A stretch of 64,000 nt of DNA from Octopus vulgaris (lineage: Eukaryota), in NCBI GenBank assembly GCA_951406725.2, contig OX597842.1, forward strand, positions 24,552,001-24,616,000, read 5' to 3'. Positions 20,081 to 63,941 of the stretch are shown here, piece by piece. Positions within the stretch are counted from its first letter, which is position 1; every line of letters starts with the position of its first letter. Below the pieces are notes generated by a model that had not been told where the DNA came from, ran no database searches, and saw only the letters and a list, made by a program, of their open reading frames with translations. The position numbers were made by a program, and so were the translations under genes.

Positions 20081-20285
20081 TAAAAACATTAAAAAATTGG
20101 TGCTTTTTCATCGACATACCAAGTAAAAATTAAGATTAGATTTTCTTGGCATTATTCAAGAAGTTTAACGGAGAATGGAATTAATATCGAAATCAGATTA
20201 GCAACATTCAAAACTTTCACAATTGTCTGGAGTTTCCAATTAACCAGGGTCATCGGATTTTACCACAAACAAAACATGTATTGTA

Positions 20286-20420
20286 TCTTACCTGTGATGA
20301 TAAATAAATTAGTGTTTAATATGAATTAACGTTAATTACGGAAAGCATCGATCTGGCGGGAAATATAATTTAAAGGCACATTAGAAAAACCGACACGGAA
20401 CGTCAACGAAACGAACTAAA
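20286..20420 (-). promoter_or_regulatory. Putative first exon of ZNF B1
   Basis: Minus strand TTAGTTCGTTTCGTTGAC ... CAG|GTAAGA (exon ends at 20292). Confidence 0.55.
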
Positions 20421-21566
20421 CTCTGAATATTGTATCCGTCCTATTACTACGCATTTGTCGGATGCTAAAACTGAAGTGGTAAATTTTTAATGGTTTTTAT
20501 TGCTATAATTACGTTTACGAAATGTGAATTATAATGAAAAAACCCCGAATAATGGCAAAAAATACAAAAGTATATGCTGACTACTTATTTTCAGGTTTTT
20601 TGCTACTCTTACGATCTCCTCTTTAAACCTGTAGTGTCGTTCTTCGTTTATTTCTTTTTAAGGTTAAGGTGAGAAACCCGTGGGTTGTTTTCTAACCAAT
20701 ACCCAAGAAATTATGTAAAGCTGACTCGCAAAGTCTTATTCAATATTATTTTCATTAAATCCAAATTCAATCGTTTAAAGAATGTTAGAAATAAAAACGG
20801 GAGAGACCTCCCTTAGTTCTATTTATTTATTTTCAACTAGTTTCAGCTCACAAGCTGTGGCCATGCTGGGGCACCGCCATTTGTTTTAAGAAGGCGTGTG
20901 ATAAAAGGCATTTTCCTGATTCTTTTTCTGCTAAGAGTTTGCTTGATGAGAAGGACAAGTATGTAATGTGTAGTGTGATGGATGAAGAGGACAACAGAAG
21001 GAGAAGCAACGGGAGGAAGAAATACAAAAGGCCTTACCTCGGCGAAGATCCGAGGTCTCTTACGAATTTGACACGTCCTGTCGCTTCCTCGTCTCTGCTC
21101 GAACTGTCCCTTCGTCGATGACCACACGTGCGTCCTGCTTGACCTCTTCCGCCTCCTGCGACGCATGGGTTAGGCTTACACCGTAAACGGGTGGTGTGCG
21201 TATTCTTTACCCCCGCCCTCTTCCATTGCACAACTAAGTTACTGGAATATAAACAAACCAACAATGGTTTTCGAACACTGATGCCTGCATGTTTCCCCCT
21301 ATCCTCATCCAACATCACTCTGATAAGCTGTATTCGTTTCTTTCCGTCCCTGTAACTTACGGGTTCGACGACAGAACAGCGTAAAAGTAGCAATCGACTG
21401 GAAAATAAGCTTTAGTTTTGTATCTTTTGCCATCATTTGGATTTTTTCTTACAATTCAAAATTTTAAATAGTAATTATAGCAATAATAAAACATAAAAAA
21501 TTTACCAACTCAGTTTTATCATCCGACAAATGTGTAGTAATACGCGGCATACGACATCAGGATATT

Positions 21567-21700
21567 TTAGTTCGTTTCGTTGAGTTTCCATGCCGACTTT
21601 TATAGTGTGTTTAAACTATATTCCCGTTAATTGCTCTTTCGTGTAATTCACATTAATCTAATTATCGTAACATATGATCTATTTATCAAAACAGGTAAGA
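21567..21700 (+). promoter_or_regulatory. Putative first exon of ZNF A2, divergent from B1
   Basis: TTAGTTCGTTTCGTTGAG ... CAG|GTAAGA (21694/21695). Confidence 0.5.
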
Positions 21701-21810
21701 TGTAATATATATTTTATTTTTTAGCAGAAGCCGATTAACCTGGCTAATTCGAAACTCCAAACAAAAGTAAAAAGTTTTAAAAGTTGCTAGTTTGACATCG
21801 ATGTTAATTG

Positions 21811-21930
21811 GGTTAAACTAAAGGAAGTTTAGAAGCCATCCATGGCTAACCACTTTGGGTTGTTTTACACCTATTACACACATTGTTTTTGTTTTTTTTT
21901 CTTTGAATGGTGTAACGCTTTAGTTTAACC
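21811..21930. mobile_element. 120-bp MITE; a second, inverted end of the same family starts at 22618
   Basis: TIR GGTTAAACTAAAG ... CTTTAGTTTAACC. Confidence 0.7.
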
Positions 21931-22659
21931 CCTCCACCTTCAGATATTATGGAAAATGTTAAACTACAAAACGGTGGACAATAATATTCTACTATCTTCA
22001 GAAACGTGGCAACTCACTGTTGTTTAGTTCAAGGTCACCCCTAACTGAGCAGACCTCTTAATGAAATTCGCTTGTGTTCCCGACTGTCCTGACTTTTAGA
22101 ATACGTCAAACATAAACACAACTATAATTTAAACACCAACCCACCACGACTTTTCCTTCTGTAACCTTATTAATAATGTAAATCTTTTAAAGAAATTCTG
22201 CATTCACATGTGTTGAAGGTCTGGATCATAAATACGTTTGTGTATTCGTTTCTTTTCAAGTTTAAGCCATTTGCTGATTCTGTCTACGAAAAGGTGTATC
22301 TTGTTTTATCATCGCGGTACCACTGGCCTCATGTTGCAGTCAGCTATTTCTGTTTTATTAGATTGCAGATTATTCACAGGAGCAAAAATCAGACATAATT
22401 AACGTGGATTATTTCGACAGGAACAGCAAATATAGATGTTTAGCAAATAATACCTCTATGATAAATCAATCGACGGCTTTGAATCGACACAGTCAGCAAA
22501 TGGAATATCTACTGTAATAAAAAAAGCTAAAAATTTGGTGCTTTTTCATGGCCATGCCAAGTAAAATCCAAATTTTCTTGGCTTAATTAAAGACATTTAT
22601 TGGCGAATAGAATTAACGGTTAAACTAAAGCGTTACACCATTCAAAGAAACAAAAAAAA

Positions 22660-22945
22660 TATGAACGAATATGACAAAAAAAAATGCGCACTCGCGAAAG
22701 AGGGGTGGGGGAGAGGCCTCGGAAATTTACATCGGGAATTTCCGAAAGCGTCTGACCCGGGCACAAAAACAAAAATAGCGTAATAGGTGTAAAACAACTT
22801 GCTCTAAACGAATATGATAAAAAAAAATGCGCGCTCGCGAAAGGGGGTGGGGGAGAGACTTCGGAAATTTCACATCTTCAGTCCACGGCCTTTAAACTAA
22901 GAAAAAATAGTGTAATTGGTGTAAAACTACTTGTTCTAAACGAGT
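22660..22945. repeat. ~140-bp tandem repeat, about two copies
   Basis: AACGAATATGAYAAAAAAAAATGCGCRCTCGCGAAAG(A)GGGGTGGGG(G)AGAG at ~22664 and ~22807. Confidence 0.7.
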
Positions 22946-24132
22946 ATCAAGAACACACACTCACACATGAATCATAAACTCCGTATTTTTGTACATATTT
23001 CGCAAAAAAAAAAAAAAGGAAGAAATTCTGGAAAAAGTGAAGAAATGTCGGATCTCCGCTATATGAATCAAAATACGTGTCAGAAACATCTTGAAATACT
23101 ACAGAAATTATGTTACGAAAATGATAATGTATACATACCTCTTTGAGTGGTCCATCGACATTGATGATAAAGAAATGAGATGGGTTGGAGGAAAAAATTA
23201 TCTCGGGCCAGGATAAAGACTTGCTGCTGCCAATAAGAATACGTGTATTCTCTTGGCAGCAGGTTTGATGCTTTCCATAAATAGGAACTTGGAGAGGTAT
23301 TGCTTTAAGTAACAGGCACGAATGCCTGGGCGAACAACTGATCTCTTAACTGACCCCACAATCTCTCTATCTTCTGTATGTGCACCGACGCATTTGTCGG
23401 ATCAACAAAATTTTCACTGTGGTTGATGCCTTATAACTTAACACACTCATCGGTAAAATTTTGCAGTTATTTCTTACTTATTTCCTTTTTTCCTAAAATT
23501 TTCGTTGCGTCTTGCAACCTTTTCAATAGTTTTGACTCTGTCCGTTATTTACACTGCTTTTCCTTTTGTTTGTTTGGGTGCATTGAAACTAAACTAGAGA
23601 AAGTATTAGATTTATGACTCAGGTCATTATAGACGAAAGTAATGTCTTGTGTCATGAGTATCATTTTAAAGTGTAATTTATTCGGGTAAAAGTTTATATC
23701 CACAGTTTATCATTATGAAAATGTAGTTATAATTTTTATTGTTAAACCTTTGCTTTTTAAAGTCTTATATCTTCTACTGTTTCTGTGTCATTTCAGATAC
23801 TCGTATAAAGGAGTTTTACGTGAGATACATCATGAATATTGATCATGTTTTAAAAACGAATGTCAGCCGTTATAAATAATAGATAATAACTCTGTTTATA
23901 TAATATATCTCTGGTGAATAACGGTGAAATATTTCTTCTGAATTGATAGCAACAATTGTTTTCCTCATTGCCAGGAATATTTACAAAAGTATTTTGCATT
24001 GTGTTTGAACGTGAGAAAATCTGGAAAGGTGTTTGTATCATTTTCAGATATTCAAGATCAGATTTGCTGTAGAAGATATATATAAAGAAGAAGGGGAAAA
24101 TATATTTTCTGTCTGTATACTACAGAACAATA

Positions 24133-25077
<945 letters not shown>

Positions 25078-27053
25078 TAATACAGGGTACAAACCATAGC
25101 ACTGTAGTATCTGCAGTAAATTATTCCGTTTAAGAAATTATTTAATTAATGACAAGTCTGCTCATACTGGAGAGAAACTATGTGACTGTGATGTCTGCAG
25201 CAAATCATTCTCTTGTGAATATGCTGTATATACTTATAAACGTATTCATACAGGAGAGAAACTCTATTACTGTGATATCTGAGGTAAATCATTCTCTGTG
25301 GAACAATATTGAACTCATCACAAATACATTCATACAGGAGAGAAATCATATCACTGTGACATCTGGGACAAGTCATTCTTTCATAGAGAGAAATAATAAA
25401 CTAAACAAACATATTCATACAGGAGAAGATTCTTATGACTGTGTAATCTGTGCTAAATCATTCTCTCAATAATCTACCTTAACTAAACATATACTTATTC
25501 ATATTGATCAATAACAATATCAATGATAAAACAGATGTCCTGCTGAATAAAATACAGCAAATGTATTACTTTTTACAAAATAAATTCATTTTTCACATTT
25601 TCCTCATTTGCATCAACTCACTAATTACGATTTGTGTTTTTTATTCAAACAATATTGATTATATTAATTTGCTCTGTTTTCTTGAGGATATATTATTTTG
25701 ACACAAATGTATTACACTCCAGTTCCCAGCCATGATCAGTTATCCTCTGCTGGACACACTCAGGGATCCCAGGATCTGCACCCTTTGTGCTACTGCCCAC
25801 ATATTCTGGCACTAGCTGGAGGCTTATTGCTGTTTGTCACAGTTTTGGGTGTAGAGTGGGAAATATTTTTCAAGAGCCTAATGCCCCACTCTACCTATGG
25901 TTCAAGCACATCCCCGCTCAACCCATGCAAGGGATTATCATCATACTTATTTTTTGCTAAATCATTCTGTAGAGCAGGTTTTCATGGTCTTGTTCTTACC
26001 AGACACCAAGCAGGGATTTATGATGGGCATCTGGTTAGAATGGCACCTGTTGTGATGAGAGTTACCATGTCCCCTTGTGAGAGATAGACTGGTTCGAGTA
26101 AAGTATAAATAGTAACGATCTGAGTGGGTTTGCGGTTCAGAGTCAACTGAAGTCGGAAGGTGTCGCTTGGTTTACTTCCTAAGGAATATTGAATCTTGGT
26201 TCGTAAAAGATTTGTTAGTTCATTAGATTGTTGTTACAATTTTCTGGTTATCTTATTTATTGTACGGAACAATTATGTTACAACATCTGGCGATGAGGGT
26301 TTCGAAGCTCTTGCAGGTCAGTTAACAAATTTTGTGATACAAAATTGTTTAATCATGGAAGACTAATTAGCTTCTTTAAAACTGTTGCAAAATCAACGAC
26401 AAAGGCAGCAACAACAACAATTATTGGGGCTTTATTCAAAGAAGTCCAAAAACAAGGGAAGTACATTTTTGCCAGACGCCACTTTGGACTCGATGAATCA
26501 GTTATAACCTGAGGACGGTATAACTGTTGCATTGTACTACAGCAGGTAATTTTTAAGGAAGATTGTAAGACATGGTCAGACACAGAAAAAGTAAGGTTAT
26601 TATGACATAAATGAGCCCTATATGAGTATGAACATTTTTAATTTCATATTACCCAAAAAAACTCAATGAAATTTGTTTTAAAGAAACAATAGAATTACTG
26701 TCTAACATATTCGGTGATAAAACTTCTCTAACACTTGGATGGTGTTTTGGAATATAATGAAAAAAGAGGATGGTGATTTTATCACATACGCAGTAACAAT
26801 TAACAGAATGTGTGAATATTTTTAAACTCAAAGAATTTACACCTGAGATGTTCAGGTGTCTTCTTTTGGTACAAGGCCTTACAACACTGAAGATACAGAA
26901 ATTCACACTGCAGAACTAAATTCTGAAGATCAACCATTAAAGATCCTAGAGGGCTCTCAACAGAAACAAAATTCGTACATGTAAAAATGATTGGAATACA
27001 TATTAAACTTCAGTTAGACATTGGAAGTGATATTTCAATAATAAATATGGATA

Positions 27054-27441
27054 CAGTCAACTCTCCCTACTATGCCAGTTTTGCAGATGCCCAGAGAGCA
27101 TGGAGCACTATCCGAAAGTTTATGCAGCAGAAGAGCAGCGGAGAACCCAGGGTCATGCAGGCGTATGATAGGCTAGACAATGAAAACCGCCGAAAGTAGA
27201 TGCGTCAGCCGACAATTTTTGAGAGCTTCAGGATTAACTAAAAGCAATTTGAACTTAATTAACATGGATGTCTTCTTTTTACCATTGCATTGAACTTCTT
27301 ATTGGCCTTACTTCCTACCCTATGAATTTTTATTCGTATGTTCAGTAAATTTTTGGTTATGTAGTGTTTAGATAACAGACCCTCGGTACTATGCCACTCT
27401 GGCTCAGTCCCGCAGGGTGGCAAAGTAGCGAGAGTTGACTG
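27054..27441. mobile_element. Tc1/mariner (pogo/Tigger-like) MITE; mate at 56108-56504
   Basis: TIR CAGTCAACTCTCSCTACTWTGCCA with TA on both sides; empty site ATGGATACATGGAAG at 12551. Confidence 0.85.
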
Positions 27442-27469
27442 TATATGGAAGAAAATAGGGAAACCTATC

Positions 27470-27673
27470 TCTTCTACATGTTTCAGTCATTTGACAGTGG
27501 CCATGGTGGAGCACCGCCTTTAGTCGAGCAAATAAACACCAGGACTTATTCTTTGTAAGCCCAGTACTTATTCTATCAGTCACTTTTGCCGAACCGCTAA
27601 ATTACAGGGACATAAACGCACCAGCTTCAATTGTCAAGCGATGTTGGGGGGAGAAATATAGACATACAAACTT

Positions 27674-27708
<35 letters not shown>

Positions 27709-28265
27709 CATACATATATATGATGGGCTTCTTTCAGTTTTTGTCTACCAAATCCACTTACAAGGTTTCAGTCGGCCCGAGGCTATAGTAGAAAACACTT
27801 GCTCAAGGTGCCACGTAGTGGGACTGAACCCGGAACCTTATGGTTCAGAAGCAAGAAACTTACCACACAGCCACTCCTATGCCTATACTCTTTTACTTGT
27901 TTCAGTCATTTGACTGCAGCCATGCTGAGCACCGCCTTTAATCGAGCAAATCGACCCCAGGACTTATTCTTTTGTAAGCCCAGTACTTATGATATCGGTC
28001 TCTTTTGCCGAACCACTAAGTGACGGGGACATAAACACACCAGCATCGGTTGTCAAGCAATGCTAGGGGGACAAACACAAACAGGCACATATATATATAT
28101 ACGACGGGCTTCTTTCAGTTTCCGTCTACCAAATCCACTCACAAGGCTTTGGTCAAGCCAAGGCTATAGTAGAAGACACTTGACCAAGATGCCATGCAAT
28201 GGGGCTGAACCCGGAACCTTATGGTTCATAAGCAAGCTACTTACCACACAGCCACTCCTGCGCCT
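27470..28265 (-). mobile_element. Two tandem tRNA-derived CORE-like SINEs (family 2); other copies at ~12590-13040(-), 19405-19625(+), 36910-37560(+), 46685-47315(-), 55314-56075(+)
   Basis: A box TGGCTGTGTGG, B box GGTTCAGTCCC, CORE-like CACCTTGGGCAAGTG, internal (TA/TG)n, tail ...TGACTGAAACAAGTAAAAGA. Confidence 0.8.
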
Positions 28266-28479
28266 ATGTTGAGAAAAACAGCAAAATTTCTTTGTAGCAT
28301 GACGGGTGACAAATTAAATTTCATAGGCGAAATGTGGGGATATGTCACATTTCAAGTGAAAGCATGCAATGTCTTCATTGTTAAATATGTTGATTATCTG
28401 TTTGGTACCAATTTTTTTTTTCTTGTTTCAGCTCAGAGCTGCGGCCATGCTGATGCACCGCCGTTTTGTACTAAAATGT

Positions 28480-28780
28480 TATTACGAAGAACTTCCTCTA
28501 ATGTGTGGCACTTGGTGAAGAATGGAGTTTGATATAGCTACTCTCATTTGCACCTCTTGCCGTGAGGTAGGTTCATCTGGGACTCTCGACAGGAAGATGT
28601 CCAGCTTTGATTTAAAAATCACTACATCTACTTTGTGCAAGTTCCTCAGACTCTTTGGGAGAATATTAAAAAGCTGTGGGCCCTTGAAACCCAGGCTGTT
28701 GCAGAAGCTGGTCCTGAAGCATGATGTCATTGCCGGGATCTTTGGCACTATGCAATGTTGTCCCGTTCTAAAATTGCTGT
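28480..28780 (-). mobile_element. CR1/L2-like LINE 3' fragment; copies at ~13480-13620(-) and ~54800-55096(+)
   Basis: GPQLFNILP...FKSKLDIFLSRVPDEP C-terminal motif. Confidence 0.75.
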
Positions 28781-30835
28781 AGTTTACAATGCAATTAGTT
28801 AGAATTATTCAATATGGGACTTCCCTATAAATATCTATTGTAAAAATGTAAATGGTTCATCATCATCATTAACATCCACTTTCCATACTGGCATGGGTTG
28901 GACGATTTTGACTGAGGGCTGGTGAGCCAGATGGCTGCACCAGGTTCCAATCTGATCTGGCAGAGTTTCTACAGCTGGGTGCCCTTCCTAATGCCAACCA
29001 CTCCGAGAGTGTAGCGGGGCCGTCCAAGAATTTGGACCTGGAGATCTCCATTTCCAGCGACTTCAAGGGCCACCTCCCAGTGGTGTCGTGCGTCAATGGA
29101 AAGCGCCCTCGACTGCAACAAGACGACCACAGATTTTTTATTTCCCTTACCTGTCTTGTTGCTTAACAACAAGAGTGTAGTGGGTGTTTTTCAAGTGTGA
29201 CTGGCACGGAAGGGGGCGCAGCCAGATAGCACTGGCATAGATAAGGCTCAAATGGTAGTTCTTTTGTGCCAACTCATTATCTCACATTCACAGCATCATC
29301 ATCGTTTAGTGTCCGTTTTCCATGCTAGCATGGGTTGGATGGTTCGACTGGGGTCTGGGAAGCCAGAAGGCTGCACCAGGCCCAGTCTGATCTGGCAGTG
29401 TCTCTATGGCAGGATGCCCTTCCTAACGCCAACCACTCCGTGAGTGTAGTGCATGCTCTTTACGTGCCACCGGCACAGGTACCAGGGGAGGCTGGCAGCA
29501 GCCACGATCGGTTGGTGCTTTTTACATGCCACCGGCACAGGTGCTAGATGAGGCTGGCAAACGTCCATGATCGGATGGTGCAAATGGCCATCTTAACATT
29601 TAATACCTTGTGTTTTGTAAATCAAATAATATCAATAAATTATAAAACAAACGCATAACAAGAAGAAATTTTGAAGAACAGACGTTATTTTAATGAAATA
29701 TATCTTGTAATCACCTGAAAAGACACATCTACACTGTTGGATACCCATAAAGCAACTCTTCAATATCCCACTCATAAAGGATCGAAGCAAGATGTGTTGA
29801 AGCAATTATAGTGATCAATAAATATTCTTGTATCTTCCGTTAATTATATCATTATCATCATCTATTTCTTTGCTGCCCACAAGGGACTAAACATAGAGGG
29901 GACAGACAAAGGGATTAAGTCGATTACATCGACCCCAGTGCGAAACTGGTACTTTATTTATCGACCGCAAAAGGATGACAGGCAAAGTCGACCTTGGCGG
30001 AATTTGAACTGAGAACGCAACGACAGACGAAATACCGCTAAGCATTTCGCCCGGCCTGCTAACGTTTCTGCATCATCGTCATCGCTTAATGTCTGCTTTC
30101 CTCGATGGCATGGGTTGGACGGTTTGACCGGGTCTCTGGGAAGCCAGATGGCTTTACCAGGCTCCAGTCTGATCTGGCAGTGTTTCTACAGCTGGATGCC
30201 CTTTTCTCCATGCCGAGCAGGGCCATCTCCCTGACAGGATCTGTCTTTGGTCTTTGCTAAATTTACTGTATGGTTTTTCAATCCAGATCTTGCTTCCATA
30301 CCTGAAATTTGTTCTCTAATTGTGGTAGGGATTCAGCAATAAGAACAAGGTCATCAGTTTGGAAGAGATCCCAAGGGCAGCCAATCTCAAATTCCTTCCT
30401 AATGCCAACCACTCCGTGAGTGTAGTGGGTGCATTTTACATGCCACCAGCACAGGTGCCAGGCAAGGCTGGCAACGGCTATGATCGGTTGGTGCTTTTCA
30501 CCAGCAAGGAAGCCAGTCAAGGTGGTGCTGGCATCAGCCATGTTCGGATGGTGCTTTTTACTTGCCACCGGCACAGGTATCACAACTACAATTTCCATTG
30601 GTTTATTTGATGTTAATGTACTTGACTCAATAGGTCTCCTCATATATCAATGTAAGTTCCATGGATCAAGGTGTAGAATTGTATCAACTAGAAGCACCAG
30701 CAATGCTATCTTCCTGGTGAGGCAAAAGCAGAAGTATTTGGTCAAAGATATATCTTTGCATTTGGATTTTGTTGACATGGAGAAAGCTTTTGACAGAATC
30801 CCCTACTCTATTATTTGGGGAGCAATAGAGAAGCT

Positions 30836-31197
30836 AAGTTAAGTTAATTTTTTGGCTCAAAAAGCAAAAAGCAAGGCCATGTAGGGGGACATGGAATTAT
30901 GTACAGGGAGGGTAGTCATACAAAGTGTTCAGGCCATTTCTGGTCAAGAGGGACTTTGAACCGAGTGGTCGTCGGCATCTTCACTATCTCATCCGGCAGC
31001 TTTTTCCACGGATCCGCAACCCGGACTGAGAAAGCCATTCTCCATCGATTGAGATGAAATTGTCACAGATAGAGCTTTTCAGAGTGACCCTGCAGCCAAC
31101 GCTCTGGAGCAGGAGTGAAGAACAGCTCTTTCGAGAGGTTACACTTTCTGCTTATGATGTTGTGAGCAAGAATGAGATCACCACAGCATCGTCGTTT
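30836..31197 (-). mobile_element. CR1-like LINE 3'-end insertion found only in the left arm
   Basis: Interrupts AGAAGCTA|GGGAGAGATG, which is intact at ~15135 and ~53540; minus-strand RRCCGDLILAHNII...GHSEKL. Confidence 0.7.
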
Positions 31198-32367
31198 AGG
31201 GAGAGATGAGTGGTTGGTGAGACATGCAAAAGCCATGTATAGGGATGCTGTCAGTAAGGTAAATGTCACCAATGAGTATAGCATGAATTTTAGTGTAAAA
31301 ATAGGAGTTCACCAAGGATCGTTTTTCACCCCACTCTTGTTTATCATAGTCCTGCAAGCAATAACAGAGGAATTTAAGATTGGCTGCCCTTGGGATCTCT
31401 TCCAAGCTGATGACCTTCTTATTGCTGAATCCCTACCAAAATTAGAGAACAAATTTCAGGTATGGAAGCAACATCTGGATTGAAAAACCATTCAGTAAAT
31501 TTAGCAAAGACCAAAGACAGAGATGGCCCTATTAGGCATGTAGAAAAGATGTCAGGAGAAACTCCATGTAGTGTACCCAGTACAAGCTATGGACACATAT
31601 TGTTCATTAGATTATAGGCTGCAGATCGTGGGATAGCCTAAGCATGTCCAGCAGAGAACAACTGATCATCGTTGGGAACTGGAATGTGATACAATGGTGT
31701 CGAAATAATATATCCACACGAAAACACAAATGAAGAAAATGTAAAAAATTTATTTGTCTCAAAAAAAGTAATACAATTGCTGTATTTCATTCCCCATTTT
31801 ATCACTGGTATTGTTATTGATCAATATGAATAAATACAGGTTTAGTTAAATTACATTAAGAGAATGATTTTGCACAGATAACACAGCAATATGTCTTCTC
31901 TCCTGTATGAATGCATTTAAAATTAGTTAAACAGCATAATCCTAAGAGAATGATTTACTACAGATATCAAAACCAAAAATCAAAGTCATAATCGATCAAC
32001 ATCAATGGAATTTGTAGCTGTGATACCAAGGCCGGTGGCACATAAGAGAACCATCTGAACGTGGACGTTTGCGAGCCTTGTCTGGCACCTTTGCCGGTGG
32101 CATGTAAAAAGCACCCACTAGACTCACGGAGTAGTTGGCGTTAAGAAGGGCATCCAGCTGTAGAATCACTGCTAGATCAGACTGGAGCCTGGTGCAGCCT
32201 TCTGGCTTTCTACACCCCAGTTGAACCGTCAAACCCATGCTAGCATGGAAAGCGGACGTTAAACGATGATGATGATGAACACAGTGATACAATATCTCCC
32301 CAATCTAACTGGATTTGTGATAAAAATATTTTCTTACACAGAATGATTTACTGCAGATATTACTGTG

Positions 32368-33924
32368 CTATGCTTTCTCTCCTGTATGAATGTATTTGTG
32401 TCTAGTAAGGTTACTTTTTCCAGAGAATGATTTACCACAAATATCACACTGATATGGCCTCTCATCAGTGTGAGTACGTTCATGAGCAGTTAAATAACTT
32501 CTTAATACAAAGGATTTACCACAGATATTGCAGTGATATGGTTTCTCTCCTGTATGAATTGATTTGTGAGAATCAAAGTTACCTTTTTGAGAGAATGATT
32601 TACCACAAATATCACACTGATATGGTTTCTCTCCTGTATGAATGTATTTGTGTCTATTAAAATTACTTTTACGAGAGAATGATTTATCACAGATATCACA
32701 GTGATATCGTTTCTCTCCTGTATGAATGTATTTGTGTCTATTAAGGGTACTTTTTCCAGAGAATGATTTACCACAGATATCACATTGATATGGCCTTTCA
32801 TTAGTGTGAGTAAGTTCATGAGCAGTTAAATTACTTCTCACTACAAAGGATTTACCACAGATATTGCAGTGATATGGTTTCTCTCCTGTATGAATTGATT
32901 TGTGATAAGTAAGGCTATTCTTATGAGGGAATGTTTTACCACAAATATCGCAGTGATGTGGCTTCTCACCTGTATGTGTTAGTTTGTGAGTAATTAAATG
33001 ACTTTTTAATGAAAAGGATTTATCACAAATATCACAGTGATATGGTTTCTCTCCTGTATGAATGTATTTGTGTTTAGTAAGGTTACTGTTATGAGAGAAT
33101 GATTTACCACAGATATCACAGTGATGTGGTTTCTCTCTTGTATGAATGAATTTGTGAGAATCAAGGTTACATTTGTGAGTGAATGATTTACCACAAATAT
33201 CACAATGATATGGCTTCTCATGAGCATGAATAAGTTTGTGTTTAGTTAAAGAACTTCTTATTGAAAAGGATTTATTACATATATCACAGTGATATCATTT
33301 CTCTCCTGTATGAATGTATTTGTGAGAAGTCAGGCAACCTTTTTGAGAGAATGATTTACCACAAATATCACACTGATGTGGTTTCTCTCCTGTGTGAATG
33401 TATTTGTGAGAATCAAGGTTATATTTTTGAGAGAATGATTTACCACAAATTTCGCAGTGATATGGCTTTTCATGAGTATGTGAAAGTTTGTGTTTAGTTA
33501 AATCACTCCTTAGTGAAAAGGATTTATCACAGATCTCGTATTGATATGGTTTCTCTCCTGTATGAATGTAATTGTGAGTTTTAAGGTGACTTTTTTGGGA
33601 GAACGATTTACCACAGATGTCACAGTGATACGGTTTCTCTCCTGTATGAACTGAGTTGTGACAAGTAAGGCTACTCCTATGAGAGAATGATTTACCACAA
33701 ATACCACATTGATATGGTTTCTCTCCTGTATGAATGTATTTGTGATGAGTAAGATGATCTTTCTTAGAGAATGATTTACCACAGATATCACAGCGATATT
33801 GCTTTCCACTTGGATCAATACACTTGTGAACAGTGAGATTTGCTGTATTAGAAAAAGTCTTTTTACAGATATCACATTGGTCTGATAATTTTTCTCTTTC
33901 TCTTGTCATCTCCGGCGGATTCAT
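32368..33924 (-). pseudogene. C2H2 zinc-finger gene B2, ~18 fingers, in-frame TGA at 33295-33297 after finger 7
   Basis: ORFs 33295-34056 and 32368-32841 are in the same frame; MNPPEM ATG at 33924. Confidence 0.85.
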
Positions 33925-40982: not shown

Positions 40983-41110
40983 ACTTACCTCTGATGATAA
41001 TTTAGTCGCTGTTTTATAAGAAATATTTTTAATTACACACTCGAACAAGCGGGAAATATTACTGGAAGACACATAGAAAAGCCGACACGGAAAGTCAACG
41101 AAACGAACTA
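40983..41110 (-). promoter_or_regulatory. Putative first exon of ZNF C1
   Basis: Minus strand TTAGTTCGTTTCGTTGAC ... GAG|GTAAGT (exon ends at 40989). Confidence 0.55.
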
Positions 41111-41588: not shown

Positions 41589-41619
41589 CTAAATTGCCTC
41601 TCAAAGAAAATTATTTACT

Positions 41620-41762
<143 letters not shown>

Positions 41763-51435: not shown

Positions 51436-52649
51436 CACTGTGATATCTGCAGTAAATCATTCTAAGTCTATTCATAAAGGAGACAAACTACGTCACTGTG
51501 ATATCTGTGGTAAATCATTCTCTTGGGAATGTGCTATATATACTCATAAATGTATTCATACAAGAGAGAAGCCCTTTCACTGTAAGAGGTGTGGCAAATC
51601 ATTGTCTGTGGAACAATATTTAACTAATCACAAATACATTCATACAGGAGAGAAAGCACTGTAATATCTGCAGTAAATCATTCTGCGTGAGAAAATATTT
51701 TTATCACAAATCCACTTAGATTGGGGAGATATTGTATCACTGTGATCATCATCATCATCGTTTAGCGTCCACTTTCCATGCTAGCATGGGTTGGACGGTT
51801 CAACTGGGGTGTGGGAAGCCAGAAGGCTGCACCAGGCTCCAGTCTGATCTGGCAGTGTTTCTACAGCTGGATGCCCTTCTTAACGCCAACCACTCCGTGA
51901 TTGTAGTGGGTACTTTTTACGTGCCACCGGCAAAGGTGCCAGACGGAACTGGCAAACGGCCACGTTCGGATGGTTCACTTATGTGCCACCGGCCTTGGTA
52001 TCACAGCTACAAATTCCATTGATGTTGATCGATTATGACTTTGATTTTTGGTTTTGATATCTGTAGTAAATCATTCTCTTAGGATTATGTTGTTTAACTA
52101 ATTTTAAATGCATTCATACAGGAGAGAAGACATATTGCTGTGTTATCTGTGCAAAATCATCCTCTTAATGTAATTTAACTAAACCTGATTTATTCATATT
52201 GATCAATAACAATACCAGTGATAAAATGGGGAATAAAATACAGCAATTGTATTACTTTTTTTGAGACAAATAAATTTTTTACATTTTCCTCATTTGCATC
52301 AACTCATTAATTATGATGTGTGTGGTTTTCATTCAAACAATTTTAATTACATTAATTTGCTGTTTTCTTGTGGATATATTATTCCGACACCATTGTGTCA
52401 CATTCCAGTTCCCAACGATGATCAGTTGTTCTCTGCTGGACATGCTTAGGCTATCCCACGATCTGCAGCCTATAATCTAATGAACAATATGTGTCCATAT
52501 CTTGTACTGGGTACACTACATGGAGTTTCTCCTGACATCTTTTCTACATGCCGAGCAGGGCCATCTCTCTGACAAGATCTGTCTTTGGTCTTTGCTAAAT
52601 TTACTGTATAGTTTTTCAATCCAGATCTTGCTTCCATACCTAAAATTTG

Positions 52650-53437
52650 GGATCTTTTCCTTTTGAACGGTGCTTTTCAACACAATTTCTAGTTAACTAA
52701 ACACTTTTAAACTTCGTATACTATTAGAATGTGTTTATAAAACATCATTTTTTCTTGGCTTTATTGAGAAAATTCTATAGTTTGTAAGATATTTCGTCTG
52801 AAAATTCGAGTATTTTGGCAATTTTAACTGATCGCTGACCTCCATTTAGGTAAATAACATTCTGTGCATAATGAATATGTCCCTCCTTTAAGAAACAGAT
52901 TGGGTTTATTTACATTTGTGAAGAAAAAAAGATACCATTCCCCCACCCCGAACCCTAAATCTAAAAGAGATTGAAATGCAATAGATCGATACTAGGGCCA
53001 TAATTATGGATGACAATTTCATACGACACCGCTACGGAAAGTGGGATTTTTTTCTAGCGGTGTCAAATGAAAATGTCACCCATAATTATGGCCCTAGTAT
53101 CGATCTATTGCATTTCAATCTATTTTAGAGTTAGAGTTAGGGGAGTGGGAAGGGTATCTTTTTTTTCTTCACAAATGTAAATAAACCCAATCTGTTTCTT
53201 AAAGGAGGGACATATTCATACATCACGGAATATTTACCTAAATAGACTCCAGCGATTGGTTAAAATTGCCAAAATACTCGAATTTTCAGACGAAATATCT
53301 TACAAACTATAGAATTTTCTCAATAAAGCCCAGAAAAAATGATGTTTTATAAACACATTCTACCAGTATACGAAGTTTAAAAGTGTTTAGTTAACTAGAA
53401 ATTATGTTACAAAGTGCCGTTCAAAAGGAAAAGATCC
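52650..53437. mobile_element. Complete 788-bp fold-back MITE with an 8-bp target-site duplication
   Basis: TIR GGATCTTTTCCTTTTGAACGG; flanks AAAATTTG (52642-52649) and GAAATTTG (53438-53445); arms inverted over ~380 bp; empty site at ~31450. Confidence 0.92.
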
Positions 53438-56400
53438 GAAATTTGTTCTGTAATTTTGGTAGGGATTCAGCAATAATAACAAGGTCATCAGCTTCGAAGA
53501 GATCCCAAGGGCAGCCAATCTTACCAACCACTCATCTCTCCCTAGCTTCTCTATTTCTCACCAAATAATAGAGTAGGGGACTCTGTCAAAAGCTTTTTCC
53601 ATGTCAACAAAATCCAAATGCAAAGATATATCTTTGACCAAGTACTTCTGCTTTTGCCTCACCAGGAAGATAGCATTGCTGGTGCTTCTACTTGATACAA
53701 TTCTACACCTTGATCTATGGAACTTACATTTATATATGAGGAGACCTATTGAGTCAAGTACATCAACATCAAAAAATCAAATGGAAATTGTAGTTGTGAT
53801 ACCTGTGCCGGTGGCAAGTAAAAAGCACCATCCGAACATGGCTGATGCCAGCACCACCTTGACTGGCTTCCTTGCTGGTAAAAAGCACCAACCGATCATA
53901 GCCGTTGCCAGCCTTGCCTGACACCTGTGCTGGTGGCATGTAAAATGCACCCACTACACTCACGGAGTGGTTGGCATTAGGAAGGAATTTAAGATTGGCT
54001 GCCCTTGGGATCTCTTCCAAGCTGATGACCTTGTTCTTATTGCTGAATCCCTACCACAATTAGAGAACAAATTTCAGGTATGGAAGCAAAATCTGGATTG
54101 AAAAACCATACAGTAAATTTAGCAAAGACCAAAGAGAGATCCTGTCAGGGAGATGGCCCTGCTCGGCATAGAGAAAAGGGCATCCAGCTGTAGAAACACT
54201 GCCAGATCAGACTGGGCCTGGTGCAGCCTTCTGGCTTCCCAGACCACAGTCGAACCATCCAAAACGGACACTAAACGATGATGATGCTGTGAATGTGAGA
54301 TAATGAGTTGGCACAAAAGAACTACCATTTGAGCCTTATCTATGCCACTGCTATCTGGCTGCGCCCCCTTCCGTGCCAGTCACACTTGAAAAACACCCAC
54401 TACACTCTTGTTGTTAAGCAACAAGACAGGTAAGGGAAATAAAAAATCTTTGGTCGTCTTGTTGCAGTCGAGGGCGCTTTCCATTGACGCCCGACACCAC
54501 TGGGAGGTGGCCCTTGAAGTCACTGGAAATGGAGATCTCCAGGTCCAAATTCTTGGACAGCCCCGCTACACTCTCGGAGTGGTTGGCATTAGGAAGGGCA
54601 CCCAGCTGTAGAAACTCTGCCAGATCAGATTGGAGCCTGGTGCAGCCATCTGGCTCACCAGCCCTCAGTCAAAATCGTCCAACCTATGCCAGTATGGAAA
54701 GTGGATGTTAAATGATGATCAACCATTTACATTTTTACAATAGATATTTATAGGGAAGTCCCATGTTGAATAATTCTAACCAATTGCATTGTAAACTACA
54801 GCAATTTTAGAACGGGACAACATTGCATAGTGCCAAAGATCCCGGCAATGACATCATGCTTCAGGACCAGCTTCTGCAACAGGCTGGGTTTCAAGGGCCC
54901 ACAGCTTTTTAATATTCTCCCAAAGAGTCTGAGGAACTTGCACAAGGTAGATGTAGTGATTTTTAAATCAAAGCTGGACATCTTCCTGTCGAGAGTCCCA
55001 GATGAATCTACCTCACGGCAAGAGGTGCAAATGAGAGTAGCTATATCAAACTCCATTCTTCACCAAGTGCCACATATTAGAGGAAGTTCTTCGTAATAAC
55101 ATTTTAGTACAAAACGGTGGTGCATCAGCATGGCCGCAGCTCTGAGCTGAAACAAGAAAAAAAAAAATTGGTACCAAACAGATAATCAACATATTTAACA
55201 ATGAAGACATTGCATGCTTTCACTTGAAATGTGACTTATCCCCACATTTCGCCTATGAAATTTAATTTGTCACCCGTCATGCTACAAAGAAATTTTGCTG
55301 TTTTTCTCAACATAGGCGCAGGAGTGGCTGTGTGGAAAGTAGCTTGCTTATGAACCATAAGGTTCCGGGTTCAGCCCCATTGCATGGCATCTTGGTCAAG
55401 TGTCTTCTACTATAGCCTTGGCTTGACCAAAGCCTTGTGAGCAGATTTGGTAGACGGAAACTGAAAGAAGCCCGTCATATATATATATATATGTGTGTTT
55501 GTGTTTGTCCCCCTAGCATTGCTTGACAACCGATGCTGGTGTGTTTATGTCCCCGTCACTTAGTGGTTCGGCAAAAGAGACCGATAGAATAAGTACTGGG
55601 CTTACAAAAGAATAAGTCCTGGGGTCGATTTGCTCGATTAAAGGCGGTGCTCCAGTCAAATGACTGAAACAAGTAAAAGAGTATAGGCATAGGAGTGGCT
55701 GTGTGGTAAGTTTCTTGCTTCTGAACCATAAGGTTCCGGGTTCAGTCCCACTACGTGGCACCTTGGGCAAGTGTTTTCTACTATAGCCTCGGACCGACTG
55801 AAACCTTGTAAGTGGATTTGGTAGACAAAAACTGAAAGAAGCCCATCATATATATGTATATATATATGTGTGTGTAAGTTTGTATGTCTATATTTCTCCC
55901 CCCAACATCGCTTGACAATTGAAGCTGGTGCGTTTATGTCTCTGTAACTTAGCGGTTCGGCAAAAGTGACTGATAGAATAAGTATTGGGCTTACAAAGAA
56001 TAAGTCCTGGTGTTTATTTGCTTGACTAAAGGCGGTGCTCCACCATGGCCACTGTCAAATGACTGAAACATGTAGAAGAGATAGGTTTCCCTATTTTCTT
56101 CCATATACAGTCAACTCTCGCTACTTTGCCACCCTGTGGGACTGAGCCAAAGTGGCATAGTACCGAGGGTCTGTTATCTAAACACTACATAACCAAAAAT
56201 TTACTGAACATACGAATAAAAATTCATAGGGTAGGAAGTAAGGCCAATAAGAAGTTCAATGCAATGGTAAAAAGAAGACATCCATGTTTATTAAGTTCAA
56301 ATTGCTTTTAGTTAATCCTGAAGCTCTCAAAAATTGTCGGCTGACTCATCTACTTTCGGCGGTTTTCATTCATTTCATTGTCTAGCCTATCATACGCCTG

Positions 56401-58503
56401 CATGACCCTGGGTTCTCCGCTGCTCTTCTGCTGCATAAACTTTCGGATAGTGCTCCATGCTCTCTGGGCATCTGCAAAACTGGCATAGTAGGGAGAGTTC
56501 ACTGTATCCATATTTATTATTGAAATATCACTTCCAATGTCTAACTGAAGTTTAATATGTATTCCAATCATTTTTACGTGTACGAATTTTGTTTCTGTTC
56601 AGAGCCCTCTAGGATCTTTAATGGTTAATCTTCAGAATTTAGTTCTGCAGTGTGAATTTCTGTATATTCAGTGTTGTAAGGCCTTGTACCAAAAGAAGAC
56701 ACCTGAATATTTTAGGTGTAAATTCTTTGAGTTTAAAAATATTCACACATTCTGTTAATTGTTACTGCGTATGTGATAAAATCACCATCCTCTTTTTTCA
56801 TTATATTCCAAAACACCATCCAAGTGTTAGAGAAGTTTTATCACCGAATATGTTAGACAGTAATTCTATTGTTTCTTTAAAACAAATTTCATTGAGTTTT
56901 TTCGGGTAATATGAAATTAAAATAATGTTCATACTCAGATGGGGCTCATTTATGTCATAATAACCTTACTTTTTCTGTGTCTGACCATGTCTTACAATCA
57001 TCCTTAAAAATTAGCTGCTGTAGTACAATGCAACAGTTATACCATCCTCTGGGTTATAACTGGATTCATCGAGTCCAAAACGTCGTCTGGCAAAAATGTA
57101 CTTCCCTCATTTTTGGACTTCTTTGAATAAAGCTCCAATAATTGTTGTTGTTGCTGCCTTTGTCGTTGATTTTTCAACAGTTTTAAAGAAGCTAATTAGT
57201 CTTCCATGATTTAACAATTTTGTATCACAAAAATTTGTTAACTGACCTGCAAGAGCTTCGAAACCCTCATCGCCAGATGTTGTAACATAATTGTTCCGTA
57301 CAATAAATAAGATAACCAGAAAATTGTAACAACAATCTAATGAACTAACAAATCTTTTAAGAACCAAGATTCAATATTCCTTAGGAAGTAAACCAAGCGA
57401 CACCTTCCGACTTCACTTCACTCTGAACCGCAAACTCACTCAGATCGTTACTATTTATACTTTACTCGGAGCAGTCTATCTCTCACAAGGGGACATGGTA
57501 ACTCTCATCACAACAGGTGCCATTCTAACCAGATGCCCATCATAAATCCCTGCTTGGTGTCTGGTAAGAACAAGACCATGAAAACCTGCTCTACAGAATG
57601 ATTTAGCAAAAAATAAGTATGATGATAATCACTTGCATGGGTTGAGCGGGGATGTGCTTGAACCATAGGTAGAGTGGGGCATTAGGCTTTTGAAAAATAT
57701 TTCCCACTCTACACCCAAAACTGTGACAAACAGCAATAAGCCTCCAGCTAGTGCCAGAATATGTGGGCAGTAGCACAAAGGGTGCAGATCCTGGGATCCC
57801 TGAGTGTGTCCAGCAGAGGATAACTGATCACGGCTGGGAACTGGAGTGTAATACATTTGTGTCAAAATAATATATCCTCAAGAAAACAGAGCAAATTAAT
57901 ATAATCAATATTGTTTGAATAAAAAACACAAATCGTAATTAGTGAGTTGATGCAAATGAGGAAAATGTGAAAAATGAATTTATTTTGTAAAAAGTAATAC
58001 ATTTGCTGTATTTTATTCAGCAGGACATCTGTTTTATCACTGATATTGTTATTGATCAATATGAATAAGTATATGTTTAGTTAAGGTAGATTATTGAGAG
58101 AATGATTTAGCACAGATTACACAGTCATCAGAATCTTCTCCTGTATGAATATGTTTGTGTTTAGTTTATTATTTCTCTCTATGAAAGAATGACTTGTCCC
58201 AGATGTCACAATGATATGATTTCTCTCCTGTATGAATGTATTTGTGATGAGTTCAATATTGTTCCACAGAGAATGATTTACCTCAGATATCACAGCAATA
58301 GAGTTTCTCTCCTGTATGAATACGTTTATAAGTATATACAGCATATTCCTGAGAGAATGATTTGCTGCAGACATCACAGTCACATAGTTTCTCTCCAGTA
58401 TGAGCAGACTTGTAATTAATTAAATATTTTCTTAAACGGAATAATTTACTGCAGATACTACAGTGCTATGGTTTGTCCCCTGTATTAATGCATTTGTGTC
58501 CAT

Positions 58504-60185
<1,682 letters not shown>

Positions 60186-61271
60186 TATTGTTCTGTAGTA
60201 TACAGACAGAAAATATATTTTCCCCTTCTTCTTTATATATATCTTCTACAGCAAATCTGATCTTGAATATCTGAAAATGATACAAACACCTTTCCAGATT
60301 TTCTCACGTTCAAACACAATGCAAAATACTTTTGTAAATATTCCTGGCAATGAGGAAAACAAAGGTTGCTATTAATTCAGAAGAAATATTTCACCGTTAT
60401 TCACCATAGATATATTATACAAACAGAATTATTATCTATTATTTATAACGGCTGACATTCGTTTTTAAAACATGATCAATATTCATGATGTATCTCACGT
60501 AAAACTCCTTTATACGAGTATCTGAAATGACACAGAAACAGTAGAAGATATAGGAAAGACTTAAAAAGCAAAGGTTTAACAATAAAAATTATAACTACAT
60601 TTCCATAATGATAAACTGTGGATATAAACTGTTGCCCGAATAAATTACACTTTAAAATGATACTCATGACACAAGACATTACTTTCGTCTATTATGACCT
60701 GAGTCATAAATCTAATACTTTCTCTAGTTTAGTTTCAATGCACCCAAACAAACAAAAGGAAAAGCAGTGTAAATAACGGACAGAGTCAAAACTATTGAAA
60801 AGGTTGCAAGACGCAACGAAAATTTTAGGAAAAAAGTAAATAAGTAAGAAATAACTGCAAAATTTTACCGATGAGTGTGCTAAATTATAAGGCACAAAAA
60901 GAAAATGACTCTCCCCAGACACAACAGAATATGCTTCAATACACGAATTCATATAAAGAAAATTGCAAACCAAATAGAATTAATATCTGTTTCTTTATTA
61001 CCCACAAGGGGCGAAACACGGACGGGACAAACAAGGACAGACAAACGGATTAAGTCGATTACATTGACTCCAGTGCGTAACTGGTACTTAATTTATCGAC
61101 CCCGGAGGATGAAAGGCAAAGTCGACCTTGGCGGAATTTGAACCCAGAACGTAACGGCGGACGAAATTAATATCGATGTCAGACTAGCAATATTGAATAC
61201 TTTCATTATTGTCTGGACTTTCGAATTTTCCAGGTTCTTCTGCTTTCACTAAAAATAAAATATGTACGATA

Positions 61272-61405
61272 TCTTACCTGTTATGATAAATAAATCAGTG
61301 CTAAAAGTCAATTAACGCAAACCACACCCAACAAGCCATTCAGCGGGAAACGTAATTTAAAGAAAGCTCAAAAAATAGACATGGAATGTTGACGAAACGA
61401 ACTAA
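61272..61405 (-). promoter_or_regulatory. Putative first exon of ZNF A3
   Basis: Minus strand TTAGTTCGTTTCGTCAAC ... CAG|GTAAGA (exon ends at 61278). Confidence 0.55.
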
Positions 61406-61782
61406 ATATCCGGATGTTGTATATATCGTAATACTATACATTTATCGGATGCTAAAACTAAGTTGGTAAATTCTCAATGTTTTTTATTGGTATAATTACT
61501 TTTCAAAAATGTGAGTTATGAGGAAAAATCCAAATGATGACAAAACATACAGAACTGACTGCTTATTTTCATATCTATTGGTACTTTTCCACTATCCTGT
61601 TACCGAACCCTTAAATTACAGGGACGGAACGAAACAAACTCGACTTTGTCAAAGAGGGACGGAGGGAAAACAGGAAGACTCGTGTGTGTTATTTCTACCT
61701 GTGTTCGAAAACCATTGTTACTTTGTTTACATTCCTGTAACTTCGTTGTATATATTACGATATATACAACATCAGTATATAT

Positions 61783-61917
61783 TCAGTTCGTTTCGTCAAT
61801 ATTCCATGTCTATTTTTTTGAGCTTTCTTTCAATTACGTTTCCCACTGAATGGCTTTTTGGGTGTAGTTTGCGTTAATTGACTTTTAGCACTGATTTATT
61901 TATCATAACAGGTAAGA
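61783..61917 (+). promoter_or_regulatory. Putative first exon (A-type) upstream of ZNF C3
   Basis: TCAGTTCGTTTCGTCAAT ... CAG|GTAAGA (61911/61912). Confidence 0.55.
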
Positions 61918-63941
61918 TATCGTACATATTTTATTTTTAGTGAAAGCAGAAGAACCTGGAAAATTCGAAAGTCCAGACAATAATGAAAGTATTCAATGTT
62001 GCTAGTCTGACATCGATATTAATTTCGTCCGCCGTTACGTTCTGGGTTCAAATTCCGCCGAGGTCGACTTTGCCTTTCATCCTTCGGGGTCGATAAATTA
62101 AGTACCAGTTACGCACTGGAGTCAATGTAATCGACTTAATCCGTTTGTCTGTCCCGTCCGTGTTTCGCCCCTTGTGGGTAATAAAGAAACAGATATTAAT
62201 TCTATTTGGTTTGCAAGGTTCTTTATATGAATTCGTGTATTGAAGCATATTCTGTTGTGTCTGGGGAGAGTCATTTTCTTTTTGTGCCTTATAATTTAAC
62301 ACACTCATCGGTAAAATTTTGCAGTTATTTCTTATTATTTACTTTTTTCCTAAAATTTTCGTTGTAGGATCGACTACTTACGACTAGCTAGCGCGTACCG
62401 GGTCCAGTCTTCGCTAGTAGTACCTATGCTTTTGTGTTTTATTTACTTTGTTTTAAAAAGAAAGGCGATCTTACGGTATAAGTACCGGTGTACTTCCGGA
62501 AGTACTGGATACATTTCAAAAAGTTGTTTTTTTATATGTGGGTGGGTGGGGGAGGGTTTATGTTATCTTTAGAAATGTAAACAAAGTCACGTGTGTACCT
62601 ATACCGAAGGATCGCCATTCTGTCCTGGCTCTCCTCTTCATGCGTCAATTCACAGAACACTTTCTCTAAATTAGTGACCACACCTTCAACATATGTGAGT
62701 GCAGTTTGTTTTTATTATTAATAAAGTTACGAGAGGAAAAGTCATGATGGGTTGGTTCACTAAATTGTAGTTTATGTTTGATCTGTTACAGAAGTTGTAA
62801 CAATCATGAACATTACCTAATTTCATTAATAATAGATCTGCTCAGTCAGGGATAACCTAGGGTTAAACAGTAGTCACTTATCATATTATTGTCCAATATC
62901 CTATAGTTGAACCCTTTATTGTTTAAACCGGCCATATCAGGCCCAGATATTCTGCATGTTTTATATTCAAACTGGCGGTATCTGACCTCTCACACCTAAC
63001 CTACATTGACATTCTAGAAATAAACAATCACATCATTGAAACCTTAAAGCTATAAGATAATGCATGATTAATTCAAAACAATTTGAGTGAAAAAGGATTA
63101 CATTTAACAGAATAATCTGAACACTAAAGGGATAATGTTTTCCATAATATCTGAAGGAAGAGGAACTGAAGTCCGTGTATATGTAGACATTACACAAGGT
63201 TGTATCATATAATTTTAATAACAAAATAAATTTCAAAGACCACACCCTTTTGTTACTAACCCGGCCAAAACCGGCTCTGGCTCTGTGGAAAAATGTCTTT
63301 TCATAAGTTTTGAATTAAAATCTTCCACGAAACCTTAGTTACAATTTATGTTCCTAACACTAGTTGAATAACTAAGTTAGTTTACTAAGTTCTTTATTAT
63401 ATTTAAAATAATTGAAAGAAACACACTGAATCTCAAAAGAAATATGGTAACAAAAGGGTTACCATATTATAAATTACCATAAATAAATTTCAAAGACAAA
63501 TTAAAGGATTATATCCACAGTTTATCATTATGAAGATGTAGTTATATTTTTTTTATAGTTGAATCTCTGCTTTTTAAGTCTTTCCTATATCTTCTTCTGT
63601 TTCTGTGTCATTTCAGGTGGTGAAATGTTAGTGATACTTCATGAATATTGATCATCTAATGGAAGATGTTATAAATATTTGACATAACTCTGTTTATACG
63701 ATTTGTCTATGGTGGAAAACTGAAATATTTCTTCTGAATTAATGGCAACATTTGTTTCCATCATTGCCTGGAATATTTGCTAAAGTATTTCACATTCTGT
63801 TTGGAGCGGGAGATATCTGCAAAGGTGTTTGTATCATCTTCAGATATTGATGAAGATCAGAACTGCTGGAAACATAAGCAATAGAAATATATAAAAAAGG
63901 AAGCAAAATTATATTTTGTGCTTGTATACTATAGAACAATA

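What the first reader, a model, noticed from the sequence alone, without database searches (positions are those of the whole stretch)
20090..62364. Three promoter-centred inverted repeats spaced ~20 kb apart, with breakpoints at the putative TSS
Seen: inversion centres near 21.0 kb (old; diverged arms ~20180-20600 and ~21410-21810), 41.6 kb (~18-kb arms) and 61.6 kb (~0.6-kb near-identical arms), each between two divergent first-exon modules. The inner boundary of the duplicated arm falls at the Inr-like motif (42181) or ~30 bp upstream of it (61753), and A1 homology also stops just upstream of it (~2112). Inferred: the cluster grows by repeated fold-back duplication starting at promoters, so each new copy sits on a bidirectional promoter. 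This is a candidate mechanism for the known cephalopod C2H2-ZNF expansion, and the main system-level observation in this window.
Basis: partly seen in the sequence, partly recalled or inferred. Interest (0 to 1): 0.8.

Follow-up and report, generated by a model that had tools for sequence, protein, structure and literature searches.

The report
Zinc-finger cluster breaking near gene starts
This likely octopus cluster of zinc-finger genes holds three recent copies of a three-gene block, one of them flipped, and most of the joins lie near gene starts, three almost on a conserved motif that likely marks the transcription start, so the copying likely swapped, clipped or deleted first exons rather than giving each new gene a shared two-way promoter.

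Summary
The three centres (21.0, 41.6, 61.6 kb) and the boundaries at 42181, ~61750 and 2112 are real, but they are three different things. Only 41.6 kb is a large fold-back (15.3 of 17.7 kb mirrored). 61.6 kb is a 0.6-kb inverted copy of one gene's first exon, grafted by 6-bp microhomology onto another gene's intron at a direct-repeat junction. 21 kb is an old divergent promoter pair between non-mirror genes. The ~20-kb spacing is the repeat-unit length; copies differ by 1-4%. Contigs from public runs show the 61.6-kb junction in another organism and indirectly support the module as a spliced first exon; no start site was mapped. Three of 14 hand-listed junction ends lie within 40 bp of the conserved 14-mer and 11 within 1.1 kb, and a fourth near-motif join appears in another organism's DNA. 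That is suggestive, but post hoc and not independent. 'Each copy sits on a bidirectional promoter' fails: one copy lacks the motif and its promoter, two lost their first exon, one has a foreign broken 5' end. Best reading: known template-switch duplication with 5'-biased breakpoints that shuffle first exons.

The parts
2112..2718 (+). A1 first-exon module (motif A at 2119, donor at 2245), promoter cut at -7; an 11-nt insert before it repeats 8 nt of the motif, preceded by an inverted piece of C intron (1988-2100)
2719..8561 (-). LTR retrotransposon in the A1 intron (LTRs 0.7% apart; RT, RNase H and integrase domains; ORFs in several frames)
8563..19487 (.). Block copy 1: A1 zinc-finger exon (+, ATG 9184) and B1 exon (-, ATG 18546)
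19488..23426 (.). Unique block with the old divergent module pair: B1's own first exon (-, motif 20417) and orphan module 'D' (+, motif 21569) whose intron is inverted (21931-22617, between 42-bp inverted copies) and interrupted
23427..41107 (.). Block copy 2 = left arm of the large fold-back: A2 (+, ATG 24133), B2 (-, 33924, no own first exon), C1 (-, 39156; module motif 41109, promoter homology to about -123)
41108..42180 (.). 41.6-kb spacer: about 120 bp of C1 promoter, MITE-like remnant 41417-41596, decayed zinc-finger fragment 41590-41767
42181..60894 (.). Block copy 3 = right arm (inverted): C2 (+, ATG 44568; module starts at +3 and lacks the motif's first bases), B3 (+, 50299, no own first exon), A3 exon (-, 60185; acceptor before 60521)
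60814..61749 (-). A3 first exon (motif A 61403, donor 61277), intron start with a SINE-like insert, and promoter homologous to module D out to -340; this promoter is the 61.6-kb spacer
61747..62364 (+). 0.62-kb inverted copy of the A3 first-exon module (motif A 61785, donor 61912), starting at about -38
62359..64000 (+). Direct copy of C2 intron and exon start (42980 onward), joined by 6-bp microhomology: chimeric gene C3 (A-type exon 1, C-type zinc-finger exon; cut by the window end)

Best explanation
Three recent copies of a 15-19-kb block of three zinc-finger genes lie here, two direct and one flipped, and they were likely made by microhomology-mediated template switching during replication or repair, with breaks that likely fall preferentially at gene 5' ends. 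Shown: the block map, the junctions, their short microhomologies, 1-4% divergence, and the 61.6-kb junction in a second organism. Inferred order: a direct duplication (copy 1 versus copies 2 and 3), a large fold-back at C's first exon (41.6 kb), then a switch that folded back at A3's promoter, copied 0.6 kb, and jumped 18 kb back into C2's intron, giving a direct 19.4-kb repeat with a chimeric gene. Inferred cause of the 5' bias: open, factor-bound promoter DNA breaks or stalls forks more often, and copies that keep a first exon and donor survive more often. The main result is first-exon swapping, clipping and loss. The 21-kb centre is an older divergent pair of unknown origin.
For: Block map and identities. 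Differences are mostly substitutions with transitions at least as common as transversions, e.g. 27 substitutions and 0 indels in 2,601 mirrored bases. Private substitutions B1 20, B2 8, B3 6; C1 26, C2 15, C3 9; A modules A1 11, A3 5, C3 5 fit the nested order. Microhomology TCGTTG at 62359/42980, a few bases at 61749/61440, and an insert copying 8 nt of the motif at 2101-2111. 3 of 14 junction ends within 40 bp of a motif (P 2e-4 if uniform; 0.007 among the 11 within 1.1 kb). A further opposite-strand joint at 61407/61713 (-4) in DNA of organism B. Guessed-RNA contigs of two studies start exactly at the acceptor (60521) with 30 letters off, depth peaks over the last 30 nt of the module (25.3 and 79.9 observed; 24.7 and 73.9 expected if those letters lie there), and run X18 has zero depth in four intron bins. 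The 14-mer is invariant in four old paralogs (135 of 20,000 column shuffles).
Against: The 14 ends were listed by hand after seeing the data, are not independent (the A1 and organism-B joins may be later deletions of the same fold-back), and come from one window. The A 3' flank gives no order (17, 15, 16 private substitutions), and gene conversion could blur it. The exon 1-exon 2 joint itself is not among the 15 joints listed (255 hidden). RNA status of X3 and X18 is the tool's guess, and X3 has intron depth. One X18 contig (depth 8) runs through the motif and the whole spacer, so some RNA starts upstream of it. Sequence alone cannot tell a breakage bias from selection.
Confidence: 0.6

Rival explanations
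1. Breaks fall without regard to promoters; the near-motif ends reflect survival of copies that keep exon 1 and its donor, plus later deletions at the centre of one unstable palindrome.
For: 11 of 14 ends are more than 40 bp from a motif. Secondary rearrangement of palindromic junctions is described for inverted copy-number variants (10.1101/2023.09.19.558550). The A1 junction joins an inverted C-intron piece to the A module, as a deletion from a C/A divergent pair would.
Against: The 42181 break removes the motif's first bases and all upstream promoter, which selection for function would not favour; it is a separate event from the 61.6-kb one. B2 and B3 persist without a first exon.
Confidence: 0.22
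2. One reading: the cluster grows by repeated fold-back duplication that starts at the transcription start, each new gene sharing a bidirectional promoter.
For: Both true fold-backs have inner ends within 40 bp of the motif. At 61.6 kb the spacer is A3's conserved promoter, and a guessed-RNA contig in organism B crosses it and ends exactly at the inverted copy's donor (record 7).
Against: Only 1 of 3 centres is a whole-gene mirror; two block duplications are direct; the 41.6-kb spacer is transposon-like and pseudogene debris; 4 of 9 genes (A2, B2, B3, C2) lack an intact own first exon with motif.
Confidence: 0.13
3. The inverted repeats are assembly or library artefacts (fold-back reads).
For: All 8 complete zinc-finger exons have fingers out of frame after the first ORF, which could be consensus errors; no run holds more than 0.55 of the sampled words.
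Against: Arms differ by 1-4% substitutions and by whole insertions; the 61.6-kb junction is crossed by a contig of organism B.
Confidence: 0.03
4. The module is the end of a mobile element, so homology stops near the motif because the element ends there.
For: Three copies begin within 40 bp of the same point.
Against: The three start points differ (-38, -7, +3) and four copies extend 120-340 bp further upstream. Module divergence among old paralogs (about 20-35%) resembles that of the exon-2 regions (24-29%). DNA contig depth over the module is like that of exon 2 (hundreds to thousands) and far below the neighbouring SINE-like insert (4e7).
Confidence: 0.02

Closest known systems
Cephalopod C2H2 zinc-finger clusters (PMC9068888, PMC9795677, PMC12513265)
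   Same: Clustered multi-finger C2H2 genes; the best-identity named hits at 59% include an Octopus bimaculoides protein. These papers report the expansion and, in PMC9795677, tandem duplication.
   Different: The passages seen give no junction-level mechanism; PMC12513265 has 0 occurrences of 'promoter', 'orientation', 'exon' or 'strand'. PMC12513265 predicts regulatory switching among duplicates, which first-exon shuffling could supply.
ODIRA, fold-back priming and FoSTeS/MMBIR inverted copy-number variants (10.1101/2023.09.19.558550; PMC10622511; PMC11790251)
   Same: Interrupted palindromes with spacers, microhomology junctions, secondary rearrangement of the palindrome centre, mixed direct and inverted copies.
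   Different: Described in yeast selections and human disease; here fixed or shared between organisms in a gene family. No origin or initiating inverted repeat was shown here.
Structural-variant hotspots at germline factor-binding sites in humans (10.1101/2021.06.10.447556, abstract)
   Same: Breakpoints near a conserved regulatory motif; a short insertion that duplicates the motif (2101-2111).
   Different: There shown with ATAC-seq and thousands of variants; here 3-4 junctions, with no binding factor or chromatin data.

Membership tests
Fold-back (inverted) duplication | Near-identical mirrored arms around a short spacer | tested here: met
   Met at 41.6 kb (15.3 of 17.7 kb) and, for 0.62 kb only, at 61.6 kb
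Fold-back (inverted) duplication | Mirrored arms at the 21-kb centre extending to the flanking genes | tested here: not met
   75% over 447 bp; flanking genes differ; 114 young inverted bases, all in finger repeats
Microhomology-mediated template switching (FoSTeS/MMBIR/ODIRA) | Short microhomology or templated insert at junctions | tested here: met
   6 bp at 62359/42980, about 3-6 bp at 61749/61440, 8-nt templated insert at 2101-2111; little or none at 42181
ODIRA specifically | Nearby replication origin and paired inverted junctions of a triplication | not testable with these tools
   No origin map; the block continues beyond the window and no genome is held
First exon with core promoter | Spliced from the module donor to the zinc-finger exon | tested here: inconclusive
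   Contigs start at the acceptor and depth fits the donor, but the joint is not in the shown rows and RNA status is a guess
First exon with core promoter | Transcription starts at the Inr-like motif | tested here: inconclusive
   Contigs only. The word budget of X18 record 7 allows full depth for at most about 120-177 nt upstream of the donor (motif is 126 nt up), but the same contig runs through the motif and the spacer. The Inr likeness is recalled, from no call.
Bidirectional promoter | Two intact divergent starts on one spacer, both used | tested here: inconclusive
   Intact motifs on both sides at 21 and 61.6 kb, not at 41.6 kb; strand and start not measurable from contigs
Cephalopod C2H2 cluster | Source organism is a coleoid | tested here: inconclusive
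   58-59% identity to an O. bimaculoides protein, matched by a lizard protein at 59%; organisms of the runs are coded; likeness of the SINE to octopus SINEs is recalled

The most novel reading that the evidence does not exclude
The conserved 14-base motif at the start of these zinc-finger genes is both their core promoter and a germline breakage hotspot. Breaks there seed fold-backs and template switches that amplify the block and swap first exons between paralogs, so the family's own promoter drives its expansion and rewires expression of the copies.
Probability: 0.25. Interest if true: 0.72.

Novelty: new member of a known kind. Interest (0 to 1): 0.42.

Why it matters
The mechanism of the cephalopod C2H2 expansion is stated to be unresolved (PMC12513265, introduction). 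This window gives base-level junctions and a testable prediction: duplication breakpoints cluster at gene 5' ends and shuffle first exons, which would explain why close duplicates fall in different expression modules. The mechanism class is well known from yeast and humans, and one window cannot carry the general claim, so the interest is moderate.

Tried and rejected
No genome is held, so no cluster-wide test. The degenerate module motif gave 0 matches in metagenome contigs. Earlier findings: nothing by place, sequence or words. No run is on record as RNA ('no RNA holder listed'); all are contigs, so table 6 lists no start places. A search with the N-terminal 44 residues of B3 found no candidate, and the LINE-like fragment gave mostly unnamed hits, so the species stays open. 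The first enrichment count (4 of 14) counted the 61749 end against the wrong motif and was corrected to 3 of 14. Contig depths (about 900-1200 on the A gene, about 50 on stray contigs) hint at many more copies, but the tool states that depth is no copy number, so this is not used. An early note that all copies arose in one burst was softened after one search showed nested private substitutions. Literature searches found no paper on junction mechanisms or promoters of cephalopod zinc-finger clusters; the library lacks most subscription papers, and no supplements were opened, so gene-orientation tables there could bear on novelty.
Full report
What the window holds. Nine C2H2 zinc-finger exons of three types, A, B and C, which differ by 24-29% in the region before the first finger: A1(+) B1(-) A2(+) B2(-) C1(-) C2(+) B3(+) A3(-) C3(+, cut), with start codons at 9184, 18546, 24133, 33924, 39156, 44568, 50299, 60185 and 63942 (Pfam confirms the fingers for B3). 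Copies within a type differ by 1.5-3.6% there. The organism is probably an octopus: an O. bimaculoides protein is among the two best-identity hits of 120 listed (59%), but a lizard protein ties it, and the likeness of the SINE is recalled.

The module. Seven copies share a core at +2121, -20415, +21571, -41107, +42181, -61401 and +61787, each followed 120-127 nt later by AG|GTAAG. In the four old paralogs (A3, B1, C1, D) the longest invariant run is the 14-mer TTAGTTCGTTTCGT (135 of 20,000 column shuffles reach 14) and the next is the donor. Its likeness to an initiator is recalled. Upstream homology runs to -340 (A3 and D), about -200 (B1) and about -120 (C1), and stops at -38, -7 and +3 in the three young copies C3, A1 and C2.

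The three centres differ. At 41.6 kb the arms 23427-41107 and 42181-60894 mirror each other (15,331 of 17,681 bases at 92% or more; mostly 1-3% substitutions outside finger arrays and insertions): a true fold-back. At 61.6 kb only 60814-61440 is mirrored; at 62359 the sequence switches through TCGTTG to a direct copy of 42980 onward, so C3 has A's first exon on C's coding exon. At 21 kb two 75%-identical modules face apart inside a unique 3.9-kb block, the flanking genes are B1 and A2, and 8563-19487 is a direct copy of 23515-34869. The even spacing is the block length (17.7-19.4 kb).

Promoters of the copies. C2 begins after the motif's AG and has no conserved upstream sequence; its spacer holds a MITE-like remnant and a decayed finger fragment. 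In B1 a SINE-like element is continuous across 19487 and leads on to module 20417, whereas in B2 and B3 it is cut there and joined to a LINE-like fragment, so these two lost their first exon. A2 joins at 23427 to module D, whose intron is inverted between 42-bp inverted copies and interrupted. A1 keeps the motif, but upstream lie an 11-nt insert that repeats 8 nt of it and an inverted piece of C intron. Thus 4 of 9 genes lack an intact own first exon with motif, against 'each new copy sits on a bidirectional promoter'.

Breakpoint bias. I listed 14 non-collinear junction ends by hand, leaving out transposon insertions, collinear indels and ends whose donor is outside the window. Three lie within 40 bp of a motif (binomial P 2e-4 if uniform), 4 within 150 bp and 11 within 1.1 kb (P 1e-6); among those 11, three within 40 bp has P 0.007 (correcting). 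The limits were chosen after seeing the data and the ends are not independent.

Outside evidence. One search listed 24 runs, all contigs, 20 holding part of the stretch, at best 0.55 of its words. Four were laid on 59950-61790. In guessed-RNA runs X3 (organism A) and X18 (organism B), 432-nt contigs lie on 60120-60521 with their first 30 letters off, that is from the base after the acceptor AG. Depth peaks in the bin holding the module's last 30 nt, at values that fit those letters lying there (25.3 and 79.9 observed, 24.7 and 73.9 expected), and X18 has zero depth in four intron bins. The joint itself is not among the 15 shown of 270, so splicing is inferred. X18 record 7 (492 nt, depth 8) crosses the spacer and the fold-back and ends at the last exonic base, so the junction exists in organism B. 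It also shows RNA upstream of the motif; its low mean depth allows the 25-41-fold spliced depth for at most about 120-177 nt above the donor, which fits, weakly, most starts near the motif. X3 has intron depth, so DNA or unspliced RNA is present there. DNA run X4 (organism B) has another opposite-strand joint, 61407/61713, 4 bases from the motif: a later deletion or an independent fold-back.

Mechanism. Private substitutions place B1, C1 and the A1 module outside their triplets, which fits a direct duplication, then the fold-back at C, then the double switch that made C3; the A 3' flank gives no order. Microhomology, a templated insert, spacers and mixed orientation are the marks of template switching and of secondary decay of palindromes. 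I infer a 5' bias from promoter fragility plus selection; these data cannot separate the two. All 8 complete finger exons have fingers out of frame after the first ORF (for example 0 of 14 in frame in C1, 14 of 20 in C2); whether these are pseudogenes or consensus errors was not tested.

Papers. PMC12513265: part 1 of 7 and term passages. PMC9068888 and PMC9795677: passages. 10.1101/2023.09.19.558550: part 1 of 4. PMC11790251: passages, which raise transcription-replication collisions as a possible driver. PMC10622511 and 10.1101/2021.06.10.447556: abstract and outline; the latter reports more structural-variant breakpoints, and motif-duplicating insertions, at germline factor sites in humans. 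Searches listed no paper on junctions or promoters of cephalopod zinc-finger clusters; no supplements were opened.

Verdict. Real and well placed, but over-read. It is a known kind of complex duplication in a zinc-finger cluster, with a suggestive pile-up of breaks at a conserved promoter-like motif that deserves a cluster-wide test. Interest 0.42; if the motif proves to be a break hotspot that shuffles first exons, 0.72 (probability 0.25).

Noticed in passing
window 2719-8561: Young LTR retrotransposon (LTRs 0.7% apart, RT/RNase H/integrase on the minus strand, ORFs in several frames) inserted in the A1 intron and absent from A2 and A3.
   Followed up: partly
window 9184-11000, 24133-25500, 58030-60185 and other finger exons: Sister copies differ by gains or losses of whole 84-bp fingers (gaps of 84, 168, 336 bp), so finger arrays change faster than their 1-3% diverged flanks.
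   Followed up: no
window 15431-16130, 52643-53444, 1214-1991, 41417-41596: An 800-bp palindromic MITE-like element; present in block copies 1 and 3, absent from copy 2, with remnants beside two promoter junctions (A1 upstream and the 41.6-kb spacer). 1604-1662 matches 41889-41949.
   Followed up: partly
window 33924 and 50299 (B2, B3): B2 and B3 have no first exon of their own but lie downstream of the C first exon on the same strand; they could be alternative last exons of C transcripts.
   Followed up: no
window 60185-60521: The A-type second exon has about 340 nt of untranslated leader with several upstream ATGs and a second acceptor-like AG near 60270.
   Followed up: no
window 61745-61770: The 61.6-kb inner junction forms a perfect 10-bp hairpin with a 6-nt loop, more perfect than in the source copy.
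   Followed up: partly
window 61610-61702: DNA run X2 shows a contig that skips 91 bases of the A3 promoter: another promoter deletion variant.
   Followed up: no
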